Notes: generated by a model not told the origin, from the sequence alone. 64,000 nt of DNA from Gammaproteobacteria bacterium (GCA_965230635.1 CBDDLJ010000011.1:26441-90440); one strand, 5' to 3'; shown: positions 33,290 to 58,371, counted from the first letter of the stretch. Made by a program: numbers and translations.

Positions 33290-33440
33290 TAACACAGTTT
33301 ATTAAAGGTTCTCTTAACTATTCTCAATTTTATGCTAGATCTTCTGGAGATAACAAAAATAGTATTAATTAAAATCTGATTTTTAAATGTTATCTAGCTC
33401 CTAGGCATTAATTCTGTCAAAAGCAAAATTGAAAGAGTTC
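33290..33440 (+). repeat. ~150-bp remnant of an Rpn-family gene 3' end; direct repeat of 57178-57330
   Basis: …tctggagataacaaaaatagtattaattaaaatctgatttttaaatgttatctagctcctaggcattaattctgtcaaaagcaaaatt is ~85% identical and co-oriented with the 3' end / downstream region of the intact Rpn gene at 57255-58235. Confidence 0.6.
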
Positions 33441-33462
33441 ATCTAACTGTGCCGCCCTTAAT

Positions 33463-33657
33463 TTATAGCCCAACATTTAACCGCTCTTCGAAGTAAATGT
33501 CAAGTTGAGAAATGGTTTCGGCCCAAGCACGTACAGTGCATAGTCCATTTCTTTTTAAATCGAGTGTCAGCAAATTGTGCGGATATGTGTCATCAAGATG
33601 GGTTTCTATCTCATTTTCTAGAGTTGCCTCAATCGCGTTTTTTATCAAAGGGATCAT
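33463..33657 (-). pseudogene. IS256-family (mutator-type) transposase N-terminal fragment
   Basis: AIEATLENEIETHLDD…KRNGLCTV resembles the IS256-family N-terminal LEAEMTEHLGY…NSRNGY block. Only 64 codons, truncated at both ends. Confidence 0.4.
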
Positions 33658-33936
33658 GCAAGACCATCCTTGCTCTGTAGCGATTTCCCTGAACGGATTT
33701 ACCCCACTATTTTGGCCTGCAGTTGTTAAATATCCAGGGAATAAATAGTTAATTTTCCTTAATTCTGATAAGGTACTATTTTAAATAATATCTAATTGCA
33801 ATTTATACCAAATTGACACAGTTTCTGGAACACTCCAGCATAATTCTCTAATTAATCGCTTTTTGTTAGAGGCTAAATATATAATGTTAATTATACCAAT
33901 AACCACCACTATTGCTAATTTATAGTAATACCTTAC

Positions 33937-36900
33937 TCATTGTATAACTCGTCTGATATTGCCGTGGCTTGTTTGCTCACTGCTCTTTTCAGTATGTTGT
34001 GAAGAAAAAAAACTCATTGCTGATTTAGAAAATAAACTCAATTTAGAAAAAATGCTGACTGAATTGTTAATATCTATTCTATAAGGCCGCAGATCTCGTT
34101 TGATTTTCTGAATAATAGACTGCGATAACGTTAATTGTTCTATTTGTCCTGCTTGTGCCACAACTACGGTGCCAGCTTGTTCATACACTAATACACAATG
34201 CTTTAATAATTGCTCCCTAATATATTGGCGACCCTTACCATGGGTTTTTTTATAGAGGGGGAGTAATAAATGCACTGGGATATGGACTTTATAAGAGATA
34301 TCATATCCATTACTGTCTTTAACAAATAAACTGTCTAGAAATTCCAGGGTTTTATTTGGCCACTTAGACAAGTACGCAGCAACACTTCTCGGGAAATCTT
34401 GGCGAACAATTCCTGCTACCTTATCATCCCAAAGGAATGCCCATATTGCCGTAACAAATTCGGGCGCTAATGAAAAATGTGAAGTAACGTCTATCGCAAG
34501 TTTAACACGAACATATTTATCCACCGTCTCATCCCTAAGGAACGCCAATATCGCATCAACAGATTTGGGGTATTGGTGTAAAAATATGCCCACACTTTCT
34601 GTAAGTCTGCAGCGAATATTACCATCTACATTCTCATCCCTAAGGAACGCCAACGCAGCATTAGCAGACTTCGGATATTGCCATAAAACCGAGCCTATGC
34701 TTGTCGCTAGACAGCAGCGAGAACCTTTACCTATTCTTTTATTCTGAAGCAATCTCAATACCACATCGAAAAATTTCGGAGATCGAGACAAAGGTGGCTC
34801 TATTCTATTTGCCAGCATGCTACGATAATACTCGTCCACCTTCTCACTCAGAAGTAACGCCAATATCGCATCCACAAATTCTGGGGTTTGTGACAAATGC
34901 ACAACCGCGTTTATGGCCAGTTCTATGCGAACATATCCATCCACTTGCTCATCCCGAAGTAACGCTAATACCGGATCCACACATTCTGGGGTTTGTGACA
35001 AATACGCACAAGCGCTGCTCGCAAGTTGGCAGCGAACATATGCAGTTACCGTCTTATCCCGAAGAAATGCCAATACCGCATCCACAAATTCTGGGGTTTG
35101 TGACAAATACGCACAAGCGCTGCTCGCAAGTTGGCAGCGAACATATGCAATTACCGTCTTATCCCGAAGAAATGCCAATACCGCATCCACAAATTCTGGG
35201 GTTTGTGACAAATACGCACAAGCGCTGCTCGCAAGTTGGCAGCGAACATATGCAATTACCGTCTTATCCCGAAGAAATGCCAATACCGCATCCACAAATT
35301 CTGGGGTTTGTGACAAATACGCACAAGCGCTGCTCGCAAGTTGGCAGCGAACATATGCAATTACCGTCTTATCCCGAAGAAATGCCAATACCGCACCCAC
35401 AAATTCTGGGGTTTGTGACAAATACATAACCGCGCTGCTCGCCAGATCGTGACGAACATACTTACTTACCATCTCATTCCGAAGAAACACCCATACCGCA
35501 TCCACCAACTCTGAGGTTTCTAACAAATACGGAGCCGCACTTTTCGCCAGCTCTCTGCGGACATAATTACTTACCATCTCATCTCGAAGAAACTCCCATA
35601 TCGCATACACCAATTCTGAGGTTGGTGACAAATGCAGAACCGCGCTTTTCGCTAGTTTGCCGCGAACATCTCTATCTACCTGCTCATCCCTAAGAAACGC
35701 CCATATCGCATTCACAAATTCTGGCATTTTTGACAAATGAGAAACGGCGCTGTTTGCCAGATCGATGCGAATATAACCACTTACCGTCTCATTCCAAAGT
35801 AACGCCCATATCGCATCTACAAACTTTTGATTTTGTGACAAATGTGCAACGACGTTTTTCGCCAGATTACAGCGAACATTTTCATCCACTTGTTCATCCC
35901 GAAGGAACGCCAATACCACATCCACAAATTCTGAGGTTTGTGACAAATGAGAAACGGCGCTGCTCGCTAGATCGACGCGAACAGAATACATTACTGTCTT
36001 ATCCTGAAGGAACGCCAATATCGCATCCACAACCCTTGGGGCTTGTGACAAATGCGTAACAGCATTTCTAGCCAGTTTACCACGAACAGGAGCCCATACA
36101 GTTTCATTCTTAAGTAACGCCAATACCGCATCCTCAAATTCTGGGGCTTGTGATAAATGCGCAACCGCGCTTATTGCCAGCCTGCTGCGAACATCTCCAT
36201 CCACTTGCTCATCCCGAAGGAACGCCAATACCGCATCCACAAATTCTGGTGTTTGTGACAAATGCGCAACGGTGATTCCCGCCAGCTCACCGCAAATATA
36301 ATCACTTACCGTCTTATTCCGAAGGAGCGCCCATACCGTACCGGCAGTAAAGCAAATGAGCTTAGGACATATGGACAAGGTACCTAAGGTACCTATTATA
36401 GTCCATGGTCTTAGCCGTTCGTTAAACCGCTTTATACGTTGTTTAACTGCCCGCAACAAGGTTTGCTGTTGTAAGCTCAGCGCATTTGTGTCGGTGCTAG
36501 AGAGCAAACTTGACTCCAAACAGCGCATCAACAAATCAAACTCAACAATACCAACCCAGTCTTTAGGGCCTGCTATTAAAATCGACAGAAAATCATCTAA
36601 TGCTGTCGGATATCGACTCAACAAACCAGCTACCGATGGCCATACTAAGGTGAAGTTGGGATGATATTTATACCTATGAATCACTTGCGTTAAGTGTGTT
36701 TTTTGCTCCTCTGTGCCTTCTCTCAACGTCACGGCTATCACATTTGCCGCTAAAAATTCTTGAAACGATAAATGGAGAAATTCATACCTCTGTTGTGCTC
36801 TTATTGCATGCCCGACTTGCTTCAATAAGCCTAATGCTTTCAACGCTGGCACATTGAGCTGCTTTAACCGATTCACCGATAATAATGTGGGGCTTTCATC

Positions 36901-56969: not shown

Positions 56970-57177
56970 TGTTAATTCTCCCAAATAGGCGTAATAGATC
57001 AATATATGAGCTCCGTGTCAAACTTTTTTAACTGATTTGTCTTTATTTTTACTAAATTGATAAAATTTAATTCATTTTTTTAGGTGCGGAATGACGGTTA
57101 TAACTGTATTATTTTTCACTAATAATTGATTTAGCAACTAAGATGATTTCATTGTCAACATCAAGCACAGTATATTG

Positions 57178-57330
57178 AAATAACACAATTTATTAAAGAT
57201 CCTCTTGACTCTTCATCATGTTATTCTGATCTTCTGGGGAGAACTAAAAGAGTATTAATTAAAATCTGATTTTTTAATATTATCTAACTCTTCAGGCGTT
57301 AATTCTGTCAAAAGTAAAATTTGCTGATCA
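57178..57330 (+). repeat. direct repeat partner of 33290-33440 (3' end of the intact Rpn gene and its downstream flank)
   Basis: See feature 33290-33440. Confidence 0.6.
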
Positions 57331-58235
57331 CTCATGCCTTGTTCCAGCATTAATCGGGCCATTTTGATAAAACGTTGTTGTGCTTGTTTCATCCCCTCTT
57401 GTAAACCCTGTTGTAAACCCTGCTGCCGCCCTTTTTCCATACCTTCTTCTCTTAATCGATCGGCTATCGTTCTCATTTTATCCTCCTCTATTGACAATCT
57501 ACCCGCAATTTGCGATAATTCTTTATCTGGCAGATTGGGATACTGACTTAATAAATAGTGTACCATACTTTGCACATAAAATTCCAACGCAGTGAAAACT
57601 TTGGGAGAAATATGCTCACCGAGTATATTAATACACTCTTCAAAATTACTCACTCGTACATGCTTCAATGTTAGTAATAATGGTGTTAATAAAGGATTTT
57701 GGCTCAATTGTTCATCAGATAACTGCGTGACATCTATCAATGGCATGATACCATTAAAAGATTGCATTGCTGCTGCCCTATCCCTTTCATGAAACAAATG
57801 AAAGAAATTAGTCGGATCACTATATGGTTTTTTGCCATTATGGATCACTACTGCAAATACTAAAGGCAATGTTTTACTACCTTTTTTCTCTACAGAGCGA
57901 CGCATGATTGCCAACATATATTCCCAAATTCGCAAAGGCATCAACCAATCTCCCCGGCTTAAATGTTCCGCAACAAAATAAACATAGCTGGACTGATCGC
58001 CATATGGAATACAATAAAGCGTATCGACATAACGCTTTCCACCTAGATTAGACTGGATAAATTCTGTTGATTCCAATGACAGTGCTGACAAATCCATTTT
58101 AGCAAGCACTTCAGCAGGTAAGTGTGTTTCAATGAAAGCACGAGCCACTTCTTCGTGCTGCATCACACTTTTAAAAAAAGCATCATGCGGTTGATTATTA
58201 CTTATTTTTCTAACCATCATAAATTCCTTGTACAC
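57255..58235 (-). CDS. Rpn-family recombination-promoting nuclease / putative transposase (YhgA-like PD-(D/E)XK)
   Basis: N-terminal PHDAFFKSVMQHEEVARAFIETHLP…DTLYCIPYG…YVYFVAEHLS is the YhgA/Rpn signature. The repetitive Q/G-rich C-terminus (GRQQGLQQGLQEGMKQ) is typical of the family. Confidence 0.7.
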   Translation of the reverse strand: MYKEFMMVRKISNNQPHDAFFKSVMQHEEVARAFIETHLPAEVLAKMDLSALSLESTEFIQSNLGGKRYVDTLYCIPYGDQSSYVYFVAEHLSRGDWLMPLRIWEYMLAIMRRSVEKKGSKTLPLVFAVVIHNGKKPYSDPTNFFHLFHERDRAAAMQSFNGIMPLIDVTQLSDEQLSQNPLLTPLLLTLKHVRVSNFEECINILGEHISPKVFTALEFYVQSMVHYLLSQYPNLPDKELSQIAGRLSIEEDKMRTIADRLREEGMEKGRQQGLQQGLQEGMKQAQQRFIKMARLMLEQGMSDQQILLLTELTPEELDNIKKSDFN

Positions 58236-58371
58236 TTTATTGGTAAAATAGTGTTTATCTATCTTATTTAGCAGTGAAATACATCACGGCTATCAATGCG
58301 GACTACCTATCAGCAGGCTCATACTGTAAATCTTGGTTGTAAGCAATGACATAAATGACCTGTTATTTTTA

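What the first reader, a model, noticed from the sequence alone, without database searches (positions are those of the whole stretch)
33290..58300. ~25-kb mosaic accessory island bracketed by direct repeats of an Rpn-nuclease gene end, between the msbA-lpxK operon and an MscS-like gene
Between msbA and the MscS-like gene lie:
- an IS256 fragment;
- a NACHT NTPase;
- a pRiA4b ORF3-like gene;
- IS4/IS5 fragments;
- two ankyrin paralogs;
- two IS110 elements;
- an LRR/CE-protease giant;
- an IS1634 transposase;
- an intact Rpn gene.

The same ~150-bp segment, the 3' end of the Rpn gene plus its flank, occurs in direct orientation at 33290-33440 and 57178-57330, so it brackets the block. Rpn/YhgA proteins promote RecA-independent recombination. 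A truncated Rpn copy at one edge and an intact one at the other is what gain or loss of the block by recombination between Rpn copies would leave. The cargo looks like host-interaction or defence functions and not metabolism.
Basis: partly seen in the sequence, partly recalled or inferred. Interest (0 to 1): 0.7.

Follow-up and report, generated by a model that had tools for sequence, protein, structure and literature searches.

The report
Accessory gene hotspot with Rpn duplication relic
A 27-kb stretch of foreign and duplicated genes has built up between two normally adjacent core genes (comEC and msbA) of a Legionella-order bacterium, and the repeat that seems to bracket it is most likely a decayed leftover of a small local duplication of an Rpn nuclease gene, so this is an ordinary gene-gain hotspot and not a new kind of mobile element.

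Summary
The repeat is real: 33283-33430 matches 57174-57321 (149 bp, 84.6% identity, direct). It covers the last ~22 codons of an intact Rpn gene plus ~80 bp downstream. Nine of the ten listed cargo items were confirmed; the IS256 fragment was not.

The region is accessory. In the closest available relatives (MsbA 58-72% identical), comEC and msbA lie 52-232 bp apart with collinear flanks. Here they are 27.3 kb apart. The true edges are therefore msbA (33013) and comEC (60308), and the MscS fragment and intact Rpn are part of the insert. Two other Legionellales lineages carry unrelated 3-4 kb inserts at the same junction, so it is a recurrent hotspot.

There is no integrase, tRNA gene or matching terminal IS pair, and composition is mosaic.

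The Rpn flank repeat ends exactly where a second repeat begins: 57107-57174 matches the MscS 3' end at 58372-58461 (82%). That is the junction expected from a tandem duplication of a 1.29-kb [MscS end-Rpn-flank] unit. The second copy was later gutted by ~23.7 kb of IS elements and cargo. The left Rpn remnant is decayed (frameshift and stop).

Delivery or excision of the block by Rpn-Rpn recombination is not supported. Interest is low.

The parts
31175..33013 (-). msbA, the conserved left flank (followed by lpxK at 30174-31178)
   Evidence: Pfam and tblastn, 72% identical to L081 MsbA.
33283..33430 (-). Left repeat: decayed last ~22 codons of a second Rpn copy (33368-33430, with a 1-bp deletion and an in-frame TAA) plus its ~85-bp downstream flank (33283-33367)
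   Evidence: blastn 84.6% over 149 bp to 57174-57321. tblastn matches Rpn residues 305-326.
33431..33936 (.). 506-bp spacer with no identifiable gene.
   Evidence: No Pfam hit at E<=10 and no match to the L085 IS256.
33937..38337 (-). NACHT NTPase of 1466 aa with about 16 tandem 35-aa (105-nt) repeats. It is a compositional outlier (GC 43%, GC3 0.41).
   Evidence: Pfam NACHT 1.7e-20. Repeats, GC. 80-85% nucleotide identity to copies in a 51%-GC genome.
38822..39361 (-). pRiA4b ORF3-like protein
   Evidence: PF07929, E 1.1e-56.
39687..39923 (-). IS5-family transposase C-terminal fragment
   Evidence: NF033578, E 1.2e-12, profile positions 375-416 of 419.
40055..43318 (-). Ankyrin-repeat protein Ank1 (1087 aa) with host-like composition
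   Evidence: Pfam Ank_2, E 3e-32. GC3 0.235.
43367..44956 (-). IS110-family transposase a
   Evidence: NF033542, 236 bits. GC3 0.36.
44797..45012 (-). 216-bp sequence shared (89%) with 51282-51492, lying upstream of both IS110 genes
45641..49053 (-). Ank2, a paralog of Ank1 (72-86% nucleotide identity) broken by two frameshifts
49069..49884 (-). orf271, no family match
50021..51091 (-). IS110-family transposase b (21% identical to a)
51517..55377 (-). LRR (RI-type, 84-nt units) plus RickCE-like CE-clan protease, 1286 aa
   Evidence: Pfam LRR_6 3e-26 and RickCE_cat 6.6e-8.
55629..57002 (-). IS1634-family transposase
   Evidence: NF033559, 301 bits.
57107..57174 (-). Repeat B: a second copy of the truncated MscS 3' end (encodes YTVLDVDNEIILVAKSIISEK*). 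It abuts the Rpn flank with no spacer, which is the inferred tandem-duplication junction at 57174/57175.
   Evidence: blastn 82% over 55 bp to 58408-58461, E 1e-6. Translation, three-way alignment.
57175..57321 (-). Right repeat: the 80-bp flank downstream of Rpn (57175-57254) plus the last ~22 codons of Rpn
57255..58235 (-). Intact Rpn (YhgA-like PD-(D/E)XK nuclease) with a C-terminal RpnS-like helix carrying 4-aa repeats
   Evidence: PF04754 1e-42 and TIGR01784 87 bits. Repeat comparison with paralog P0122.
58372..58908 (-). Truncated MscS-like gene (178 aa, lacking the C-terminal domain). Its last 90 bp (58372-58461) are repeat A.
58909..60307 (.). 1.4 kb without ORFs, containing a 181-bp MITE-like element (59811-59991, 43-nt terminal inverted repeats)
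60308..62563 (-). comEC, the conserved right flank
   Evidence: Pfam Competence 1.8e-53. Collinear with relatives.

Best explanation
Positions 33014-60307 are a lineage-specific accessory region that has accumulated at a recurrent gene-gain hotspot. The hotspot is the junction between the core genes comEC and msbA of a Legionellales bacterium. The region is not a discrete mobile element.

Inferred order of events:
1. A truncated MscS gene followed by an Rpn gene came to lie between comEC and msbA. Rpn is a PD-(D/E)XK nuclease of the toxin/intragenic-antitoxin defence type.
2. A 1.29-kb unit was duplicated in tandem. The unit runs from the last 90 bp of the MscS fragment, through the Rpn gene, to 80 bp past its stop codon (58461 down to 57175 on the minus strand). 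The duplication created the junction flank|MscS-end at 57174/57175.
3. The msbA-proximal copy was destroyed. About 1.05 kb of it (the Rpn promoter region and the first ~918 bp of the gene) was replaced by ~23.7 kb. This material comprises IS1634, an LRR-CE protease gene, two IS110 elements, a locally duplicated ankyrin gene, an IS5 fragment, a pRiA4-like gene and a horizontally acquired NACHT gene. The ~68-bp MscS end, the last 63 bp of Rpn and its flank were left behind.
4. The leftovers drifted to 82-85% identity.

The 149-bp 'bracketing' repeat is therefore a relic: the cargo landed inside one copy of a duplicated Rpn unit. The repeat is not an attachment or recombination site that delivered the cargo.

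Shown: the repeats, the junction, the gene identities, absence of the region from relatives, and the mosaic composition.
Inferred: the order of events, and the tandem-duplication origin.
For: Hotspot and accessory status:
- comEC and msbA are 52-232 bp apart in L081, L082/L083, L002 and L086.
- Flanks are collinear on both sides: alphaE, GATase-TG, DUF2126, M15, DUF308, lpxK, msbA on one side, and comEC, orf544 on the other.
- comEC-msbA-lpxK is widespread in Gammaproteobacteria.
- L001 and L087/L088 carry unrelated 3-4 kb inserts at the same junction.

Not one element:
- No integrase was found among ORFs of 80 aa or more, and there is no tRNA gene.
- The intact IS elements belong to three families (two dissimilar IS110, one IS1634), the IS5 piece is only a fragment, and none forms a matched pair at the edges.
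- GC3 is 0.34-0.41 for the NACHT gene and the IS elements, against about 0.27 for core genes, 0.20-0.25 for the ankyrin genes and 0.32 for the LRR-CE gene.
- The NACHT gene is 80-85% identical to copies in a 51%-GC genome, where it is also an outlier.

Tandem duplication:
- The Rpn-flank repeat (33283 against 57174) ends at the same base where the MscS-end repeat begins (57174 against 58461).
- The order on the minus strand is A, Rpn, flank | B ... Rpn' end, flank'. This is exactly two units head to tail.
- The two repeat pairs are similarly diverged, 82% and 84.6%.
- The remnant's last 22 codons resemble the local Rpn, not the 78%-identical paralog P0122.
- PMC10400941 reports that rpn arrays arise by tandem direct duplication and that rpn genes lack terminal inverted repeats and target duplications.
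Against: - Repeat B is short (55-68 bp). The ~100 bp beyond it shows no convincing similarity to the Rpn upstream region, so the second unit is attested only by its two ends.
- The rest of the source genome could not be retrieved. I could not test whether other Rpn copies, such as the P0122 locus, end at the same base next to unrelated DNA. That would favour a mobile Rpn module.
- The nearest relatives are distant (MsbA at most 72% identical). Neither strain-level polymorphism nor the timing of gain is known.
- 15-18% divergence implies an old duplication, while several IS elements have intact ORFs. The events must be well separated in time.
Confidence: 0.6

Rival explanations
1. The block between the repeats was gained, or can be lost, as a unit by recombination between two Rpn gene copies. 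The recombination would be either homologous (Campbell-type) or promoted by the Rpn nuclease itself, leaving one intact and one truncated Rpn at the edges.
For: There are two Rpn-derived sequences in direct orientation, 23.9 kb apart. Overexpressed RpnA to RpnD raise RecA-independent recombination in E. coli (PMC5350276). The authors of that paper speculate that off-target nuclease effects may aid island assembly.
Against: - Campbell-type integration would leave two full hybrid genes, not a 63-bp stub.
- It does not explain the MscS-end segment B abutting the flank.
- The right repeat is 3 kb inside the region that relatives lack.
- Identity is 85% with at most 24 bp uninterrupted, which is a poor recombination substrate.
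- The cargo is compositionally mosaic and contains its own internal duplication.
- This Rpn has Leu at the RpnA Gln84 position, and Q84A abolished recombination promotion.
Confidence: 0.15
2. The Rpn gene with its ~80-bp downstream flank is a discrete movable module with a fixed 3' end. It inserted twice, once into the 3' end of an MscS gene and once upstream of msbA. The shared boundary at 57174/33283 would then be the module's end, and A/B would be a duplication of, or replacement for, the target gene's end.
For: The homology ends at the same point in two different sequence contexts. The intact Rpn is flanked by direct repeats of the MscS end. rpn genes are sporadically distributed and spread horizontally as single genes (PMC10400941, PMC5350276). 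A 78%-identical paralog exists on another contig.
Against: - Published comparisons found no fixed ends, inverted repeats or target duplications around rpn genes, and no autonomous transposition.
- It needs two events and a coincidence, where a tandem duplication needs one event.
- No MscS-like sequence follows the left copy.
Confidence: 0.15
3. The 149-bp repeat is a long target-site duplication made by the IS1634-family element. Some members of this family create direct repeats of 8-514 bp.
For: An IS1634 transposase gene lies 172 bp from the right repeat. Long variable direct repeats are reported for IS1634 and IS1549 (PMC2266710).
Against: - The repeats do not directly flank the IS. Segment B plus ~100 bp separate it from one copy, and 22 kb of other genes separate it from the other.
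- A target duplication starts out identical, whereas these copies are 85% identical while the IS ORF is intact.
- No IS ends could be defined.
Confidence: 0.03

Closest known systems
Tandem direct duplications of rpn genes and downstream RpnS-like remnants (Zhong et al. 2023, PNAS, PMC10400941)
   Same: This is an Rpn gene (PF04754/TIGR01784) with a C-terminal helix carrying 4-aa repeats. The repeat number differs between paralogs: 4 here against 3 in P0122. A second, direct-orientation copy of the gene end lies downstream. There are no inverted repeats or target duplications.
   Different: The second copy is reduced to 63 bp plus flank and is non-functional, and it is separated from the first by 23.7 kb of later insertions. 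The duplicated unit also includes the end of a truncated MscS gene. The catalytic Gln is replaced by Leu.
Chromosomal hotspots of horizontal gene transfer between conserved core genes (general concept, from my own knowledge; for example Oliveira et al. 2017, Nat Commun)
   Same: The core flanks are collinear (comEC, msbA). The junction is empty in some lineages and holds different unrelated content in others. IS elements, a defence gene and lineage-specific genes are enriched here.
   Different: This was shown only across distant relatives (58-72% MsbA identity), not within a species. Turnover rates are unknown.
Classical integrative genomic islands, ICEs or prophages with att direct repeats
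   Same: A large block absent from relatives, with a direct repeat near its two ends.
   Different: There is no integrase, tRNA target or transfer genes. The repeats are 85% identical, and one of them lies 3 kb inside the real edge. Composition is mosaic.
Eukaryote-like effector repertoires of Legionellales (ankyrin, LRR and CE-clan protease proteins)
   Same: The cargo has ankyrin repeats, RI-type LRRs and a RickCE-like domain. A SET-domain protein lies elsewhere in the window.
   Different: No evidence of secretion or translocation was obtained. One ankyrin copy is a pseudogene.

Membership tests
Site-specific integrative island (ICE, prophage or tRNA-associated island) | Integrase or site-specific recombinase gene inside the element | tested here: not met
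   Pfam and NCBIfam on all ORFs of 80 aa or more in 33014-60307 found only IS110 and IS1634 transposases and an IS5 fragment.
Site-specific integrative island (ICE, prophage or tRNA-associated island) | Direct repeats (att) at the two real edges, often in a tRNA gene | tested here: not met
   There is no tRNA gene in the window. The right repeat is 3 kb inside the comEC edge, and identity is only 85%.
Site-specific integrative island (ICE, prophage or tRNA-associated island) | Absent from related genomes at a conserved site | tested here: met
   comEC and msbA are adjacent in L081, L082/83, L002 and L086.
HGT hotspot / plasticity zone between core genes | Collinear core genes on both sides | tested here: met
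   tblastn of L081 genes against the window.
HGT hotspot / plasticity zone between core genes | Different, unrelated content at the same junction in different lineages | tested here: met
   L001 (3 kb, 2 genes) and L087/88 (4 kb, 2 genes) are unrelated to each other and to the window.
HGT hotspot / plasticity zone between core genes | Presence/absence polymorphism among close strains | not testable with these tools
   No relative closer than 72% MsbA identity was found, and the source genome is not retrievable.
Rpn (YhgA-like) recombination-promoting nuclease / RpnL-RpnS toxin-antitoxin | Transposase_31 / TIGR01784 domain above the curated cut-off | tested here: met
   PF04754, 146.5 bits (cut-off 21). 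TIGR01784, 87.3 bits (cut-off 52.1).
Rpn (YhgA-like) recombination-promoting nuclease / RpnL-RpnS toxin-antitoxin | Catalytic residues equivalent to RpnA D63, E82 and Q84 | tested here: inconclusive
   Asp and Glu are present (VDTLY, AEH). Gln is replaced by Leu (EHL against EHQ in P0123) in both paralogs. In RpnA, Q84A lost recombination promotion but kept toxicity.
Rpn (YhgA-like) recombination-promoting nuclease / RpnL-RpnS toxin-antitoxin | C-terminal RpnS region with a variable number of 4-aa repeats | tested here: met
   MEKG-RQQG-LQQG-LQEG here against LQQG-LQQG-IQEG in P0122. The feature is described in PMC10400941. Separate translation of RpnS was not tested.
Rpn (YhgA-like) recombination-promoting nuclease / RpnL-RpnS toxin-antitoxin | Nuclease activity, toxicity or phage defence | not testable with these tools
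   Needs experiment.
rpn tandem direct duplication | End of one unit abuts the start of the next (head-to-tail junction) | tested here: met
   At 57174/57175 the flank repeat ends and the MscS-end repeat begins, with 0-1 bp overlap.
rpn tandem direct duplication | Homology across the whole second unit | tested here: not met
   Only the two ends of unit 2 survive (57107-57174 and 33283-33430). The interior has been replaced.
Composite transposon | Two copies of the same IS at the ends | tested here: not met
   The IS110 pair is 21% identical and internal. IS1634 is single, and the IS5 piece is a fragment.
IS1634-type long target duplication | Direct repeats immediately flanking the IS | tested here: not met
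   See the coordinates in the parts list. No IS ends were found.
Bacterial NLR-like antiphage proteins (bNACHT / Avs) | NACHT/STAND NTPase plus C-terminal repeat sensor | tested here: met
   NACHT at residues 185-354 and about 16 35-aa repeats.
Bacterial NLR-like antiphage proteins (bNACHT / Avs) | Match to known defence-system models, or a recognisable N-terminal effector domain | tested here: not met
   PADLOC gave only a 17-bit P-loop hit. The AlphaFold model of residues 1-185 has pLDDT 45 and is mostly unstructured.

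The most novel reading that the evidence does not exclude
The Rpn unit is the seed of the island. Breaks made by the Rpn nuclease next to its own gene caused the 1.29-kb unit to duplicate. This could have happened in tandem or through a circular copy that re-integrated, which would give the same flank|MscS-end junction. 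The same breaks then repeatedly captured foreign DNA (the NACHT gene, IS elements, effector genes) by microhomology-mediated joining. On this reading an Rpn defence gene turns its chromosomal site into a gene-capture hotspot.
Probability: 0.08. Interest if true: 0.65.

Novelty: new member of a known kind. Interest (0 to 1): 0.25.

Why it matters
The finding shows how a repeat that appears to bracket an island can mislead. Here the apparent att-like repeat is most likely debris from a small duplication that was later split by insertions.

It adds one example from Legionellales, outside the taxa named in the passages I read, to the published observation that rpn genes multiply by tandem duplication. 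It also marks the comEC-msbA junction as a recurrent gene-gain site in Legionellales.

It does not open a new mechanism. Its practical value is for annotating effector and defence gene turnover in poorly sampled intracellular bacteria.

Tried and rejected
- **Source genome not retrievable.** Exact look-ups of window proteins (MsbA, ComEC, NACHT) and of the database copies of Rpn (P0121, 100%), its 78% paralog (P0122) and a NACHT paralog (P0133) found no contig. Cluster look-up gave no accession or name. The repeat's genome-wide distribution and the paralog's context could therefore not be examined.
- **Metagenome scan.** A scan for the 23-nt conserved core of the repeat returned 0 hits.
- **RNA searches.** Rfam found nothing in the window at gathering thresholds, and nothing at E<=1 around the IS110 upstream repeat. 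RNA folding of that repeat gave z-scores near 0.
- **Promoter and terminator scans.** Results around the repeats were at background.
- **IS ends.** The terminal inverted repeats of IS1634 and the IS110 ends could not be defined.
- **IS256 fragment.** It got no support from Pfam at E<=10 or from comparison with a real IS256 copy in L085.
- **Homology beyond repeat B.** The alignment into the Rpn upstream region is ambiguous.
- **Intergenic alignment to relatives.** It was uninformative.
- **NACHT N-terminus.** The AlphaFold model was too poor (pLDDT 45) for a fold search.
- **Solved structures.** A PDB sequence search with Rpn found no hit.
- **Models rejected.** A single integrative element, a composite transposon, an IS1634 target duplication, and chance.

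Full report
**Observation**

A self-comparison of the window shows that 33283-33430 and 57174-57321 are direct repeats of 149 bp at 84.6% identity (E about 1e-38). No third copy is present in the 64 kb. The right copy spans the last ~22 codons of an intact 326-codon ORF (57255-58235, minus strand) and ~80 bp beyond its stop. The ORF is an Rpn/YhgA-like protein: PF04754 at 146 bits and TIGR01784 at 87 bits against a cut-off of 52. tblastn finds only residues 305-326 of Rpn at the left site. Read against the right copy, the left one carries a 1-bp deletion and an in-frame TAA, so it is a dead stub.

- NACHT, pRiA4_ORF3 and an ankyrin protein.
- A second ankyrin paralog split by two frameshifts.
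- Two IS110 transposases that are only 21% identical.
- An LRR plus RickCE-like protease and an IS1634 transposase.
- An IS5 C-terminal fragment.
- The IS256 fragment found no support.
- The 'MscS-like gene' is a 178-aa fragment that stops at about position 172 of a 286-position MscS profile.

**Where the region sits**

The source genome could not be retrieved. The closest MsbA homologues are 72%, 68%, 65% and 62% identical. Their contigs show the following.
- L081: comEC, 125 bp, msbA, lpxK, a small orf, DUF308, M15, DUF2126.
- L082 and L083: a 61-bp gap between comEC and msbA.
- L086: a 52-bp gap.
- L002, found in the genome collection: a 232-bp gap.
- More widely, comEC lies directly upstream of the msbA-lpxK pair, or within about 3 kb of it, in many Gammaproteobacteria.

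All L081 genes on both sides map collinearly onto the window: alphaE, GATase-TG, DUF2126, M15, DUF308, lpxK and msbA on the left, and comEC and orf544 on the right. In the window, msbA starts at 33013 and comEC ends at 60308. The whole 27.3 kb between them is therefore extra relative to these lineages. That includes the MscS fragment, the intact Rpn and 1.4 kb of ORF-free DNA.

Two other Legionellales lineages have different inserts at the same junction. L001 has 3 kb with two genes, and L087/L088 have 4 kb with two genes. These are unrelated to each other and to the window's cargo. The junction is thus a recurrent gene-gain site. Because the nearest relatives are distant, strain-level presence or absence and the date of gain remain unknown.

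**Is it one element?**

The evidence says no.
- No integrase or other site-specific recombinase was found among ORFs of 80 aa or more, and there is no tRNA gene.
- No two matching IS copies lie at the ends.
- Composition is heterogeneous. GC3 is about 0.27 in the flanking core genes. It is 0.41 in NACHT, 0.36 and 0.40 in the IS110 genes, 0.34 in IS1634 and 0.32 in the LRR-CE gene. The ankyrin genes (0.20-0.25) look native.
- The NACHT gene is 80-85% identical in DNA to two copies on an unrelated contig (L085). That contig's backbone is about 51% GC, while its NACHT genes are 43-46% GC. The gene is therefore a horizontally moving outlier in both genomes.
- The block also contains its own internal duplication. 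The segments 39944-43315 and 45544-49072 (the ankyrin genes) match at 72-86%, and a 216-bp sequence at 44797-45012 matches 51282-51492 at 89%.
- All IS elements in the window lie inside the 27.3 kb. The 33 kb to the left has none.

**What the repeats are**

The self-comparison revealed a second, smaller repeat. Positions 57120-57174 match 58408-58461 (82%, E 1e-6). Both encode the C-terminus of the truncated MscS and end in SEK-stop: YTVLNGDNEVILVPNQVLLSRTVRIVSEK* and YTVLDVDNEIILVAKSIISEK*. The extents are 58372-58461 (repeat A) and 57107-57174 (repeat B).

In a three-way alignment, the sequence around 57174/57175 matches the left Rpn flank up to ...TCAAT. From the next base it matches the MscS end (ATAC...), with at most 1 bp of overlap.

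Reading the minus strand, the order is: MscS 5' part, A, Rpn upstream region, Rpn, flank | B ... cargo ... Rpn' last 22 codons, flank', then msbA. This is the topology of two head-to-tail copies of a 1,287-bp unit (58461 down to 57175). The second copy retains only its first ~68 bp and its last ~149 bp.

Several points agree with a single duplication event.
- The two repeat pairs are similarly diverged (82% and 84.6%).
- The remnant's C-terminal codons resemble the neighbouring Rpn (…ELDNIKKSDFN), not the 78%-identical paralog P0122 (…EMLGHIKASLDEEQSNVN).
- Zhong et al. report that rpn genes lack inverted repeats and target duplications, have variable ends, show no evidence of autonomous transposition, and form arrays by tandem direct duplication (PMC10400941).

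I therefore read the 149-bp 'brackets' as the intact first copy and the stub of the second copy. About 23.7 kb of IS elements and cargo later replaced the interior of that second copy.

The weak points are these.
- B is short.
- Homology beyond B into the Rpn upstream region is not demonstrable.
- The alternative of a movable Rpn module with a fixed 3' end cannot be excluded without the rest of the genome.

**Mechanism and rivals**

The most likely history is stepwise accretion at a hotspot.
1. An MscS-fragment and Rpn pair came to lie between comEC and msbA.
2. The 1.29-kb unit duplicated in tandem.
3. IS insertions and associated deletions destroyed copy 2 and brought in or accompanied the NACHT, pRiA4, ankyrin and LRR-CE genes.
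4. The ankyrin segment duplicated locally and received IS110 insertions.
5. Decay followed: the Ank2 frameshifts, the IS5 fragment and the Rpn stub.

It does not account for segment B, for the 3 kb of accessory DNA outside the right repeat, or for the 63-bp stub. It would also have to work on 85% identity with at most 24 bp uninterrupted. In addition, this Rpn and its paralog have Leu where RpnA has Gln84 (EHL against EHQ). The RpnA Q84A mutant kept toxicity but lost promotion of recombination (PMC5350276). That is indirect evidence only.

A long IS1634 target duplication is excluded by position and by divergence, even though direct repeats of up to 514 bp are known for this family (PMC2266710). 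Future deletion between the repeats is possible in principle but should be inefficient.

**Comparison with known systems**

The Rpn gene passes the family's domain test. It also shows the C-terminal 4-aa repeat variation described for RpnS: four units here against three in P0122. It is best regarded as an RpnL/RpnS-type toxin-antitoxin defence gene, with activity untested.

The NACHT protein has an NLR-like layout. It matches no PADLOC defence model, and its N-terminal 185 residues model as disordered. Its role, whether defence or host interaction, is open.

The whole region fits the known category of a chromosomal HGT hotspot or plasticity zone. It does not fit an integrative island, an ICE or a composite transposon.

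**Verdict**

The proposed Rpn-Rpn recombination origin is not supported. A tandem duplication relic split by later insertions explains the repeat architecture better (confidence about 0.6). This is a new example of known phenomena. Interest is low, at 0.25.

Noticed in passing
window 33937-38337; L085 10001-13732 and 14313-15881: The NACHT protein belongs to a small family with paralogs 61-79% identical (P0133-P0139). An unrelated contig with a ~51%-GC backbone carries two copies that are 80-85% identical in DNA. The genes are 43-46% GC in both hosts, so the family seems to move horizontally. The next-best hits in 5.8 billion proteins are NACHT-HEAT proteins of Mortierellomycotina fungi at 25% identity. 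In the window's copy, three consecutive 35-aa repeat units are identical and a fourth differs at one residue, which suggests recent expansion.
   Followed up: partly
window 44797-45012 and 51282-51492: Two IS110-family (RNA-guided) transposase genes that are only 21% identical are each preceded by the same 216-bp sequence (89% identity). There is no Rfam match and no excess folding energy. The sequence may be part of the duplicated ankyrin segment and a shared insertion target, or a shared element end. This is unresolved.
   Followed up: partly
window 59811-59991: A 181-bp MITE-like element with 43-nt terminal inverted repeats (88% complementary). It lies in the 1.4-kb ORF-free stretch next to comEC, and its ends occur nowhere else in the window.
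   Followed up: partly
window 57255-58235: This Rpn and its 78% paralog P0122 have EHL instead of the family's EHQ at the third catalytic position. They differ by one 4-aa 'xQQG' repeat in the C-terminal helix, the kind of variation reported for RpnS antitoxins.
   Followed up: partly
L001 7028-9768; L087 4068-7918: Other Legionellales lineages carry unrelated genes without Pfam domains in the same comEC-msbA gap. L001 has two on the opposite strand and L087/88 has two on the same strand. This marks the junction as a recurrent hotspot.
   Followed up: yes
L082 14096-16804: In the 68% relative, a 902-aa ankyrin protein follows DUF308 where the window and L081 have the M15 peptidase and DUF2126 cluster. 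This is a second variable spot just downstream of lpxK.
   Followed up: no
window 35-1492: A SET-domain protein (485 aa) lies outside the island. It is another eukaryote-like candidate host-interaction gene, and large ORFs without Pfam domains lie at 2186-5143, 5440-7062 and 11825-13978.
   Followed up: no
window 45641-49053: The second ankyrin paralog is read in three frames (two frameshifts within the ankyrin repeats), so it is probably a pseudogene. Both paralogs also contain 261-nt tandem units near their 3' ends.
   Followed up: partly
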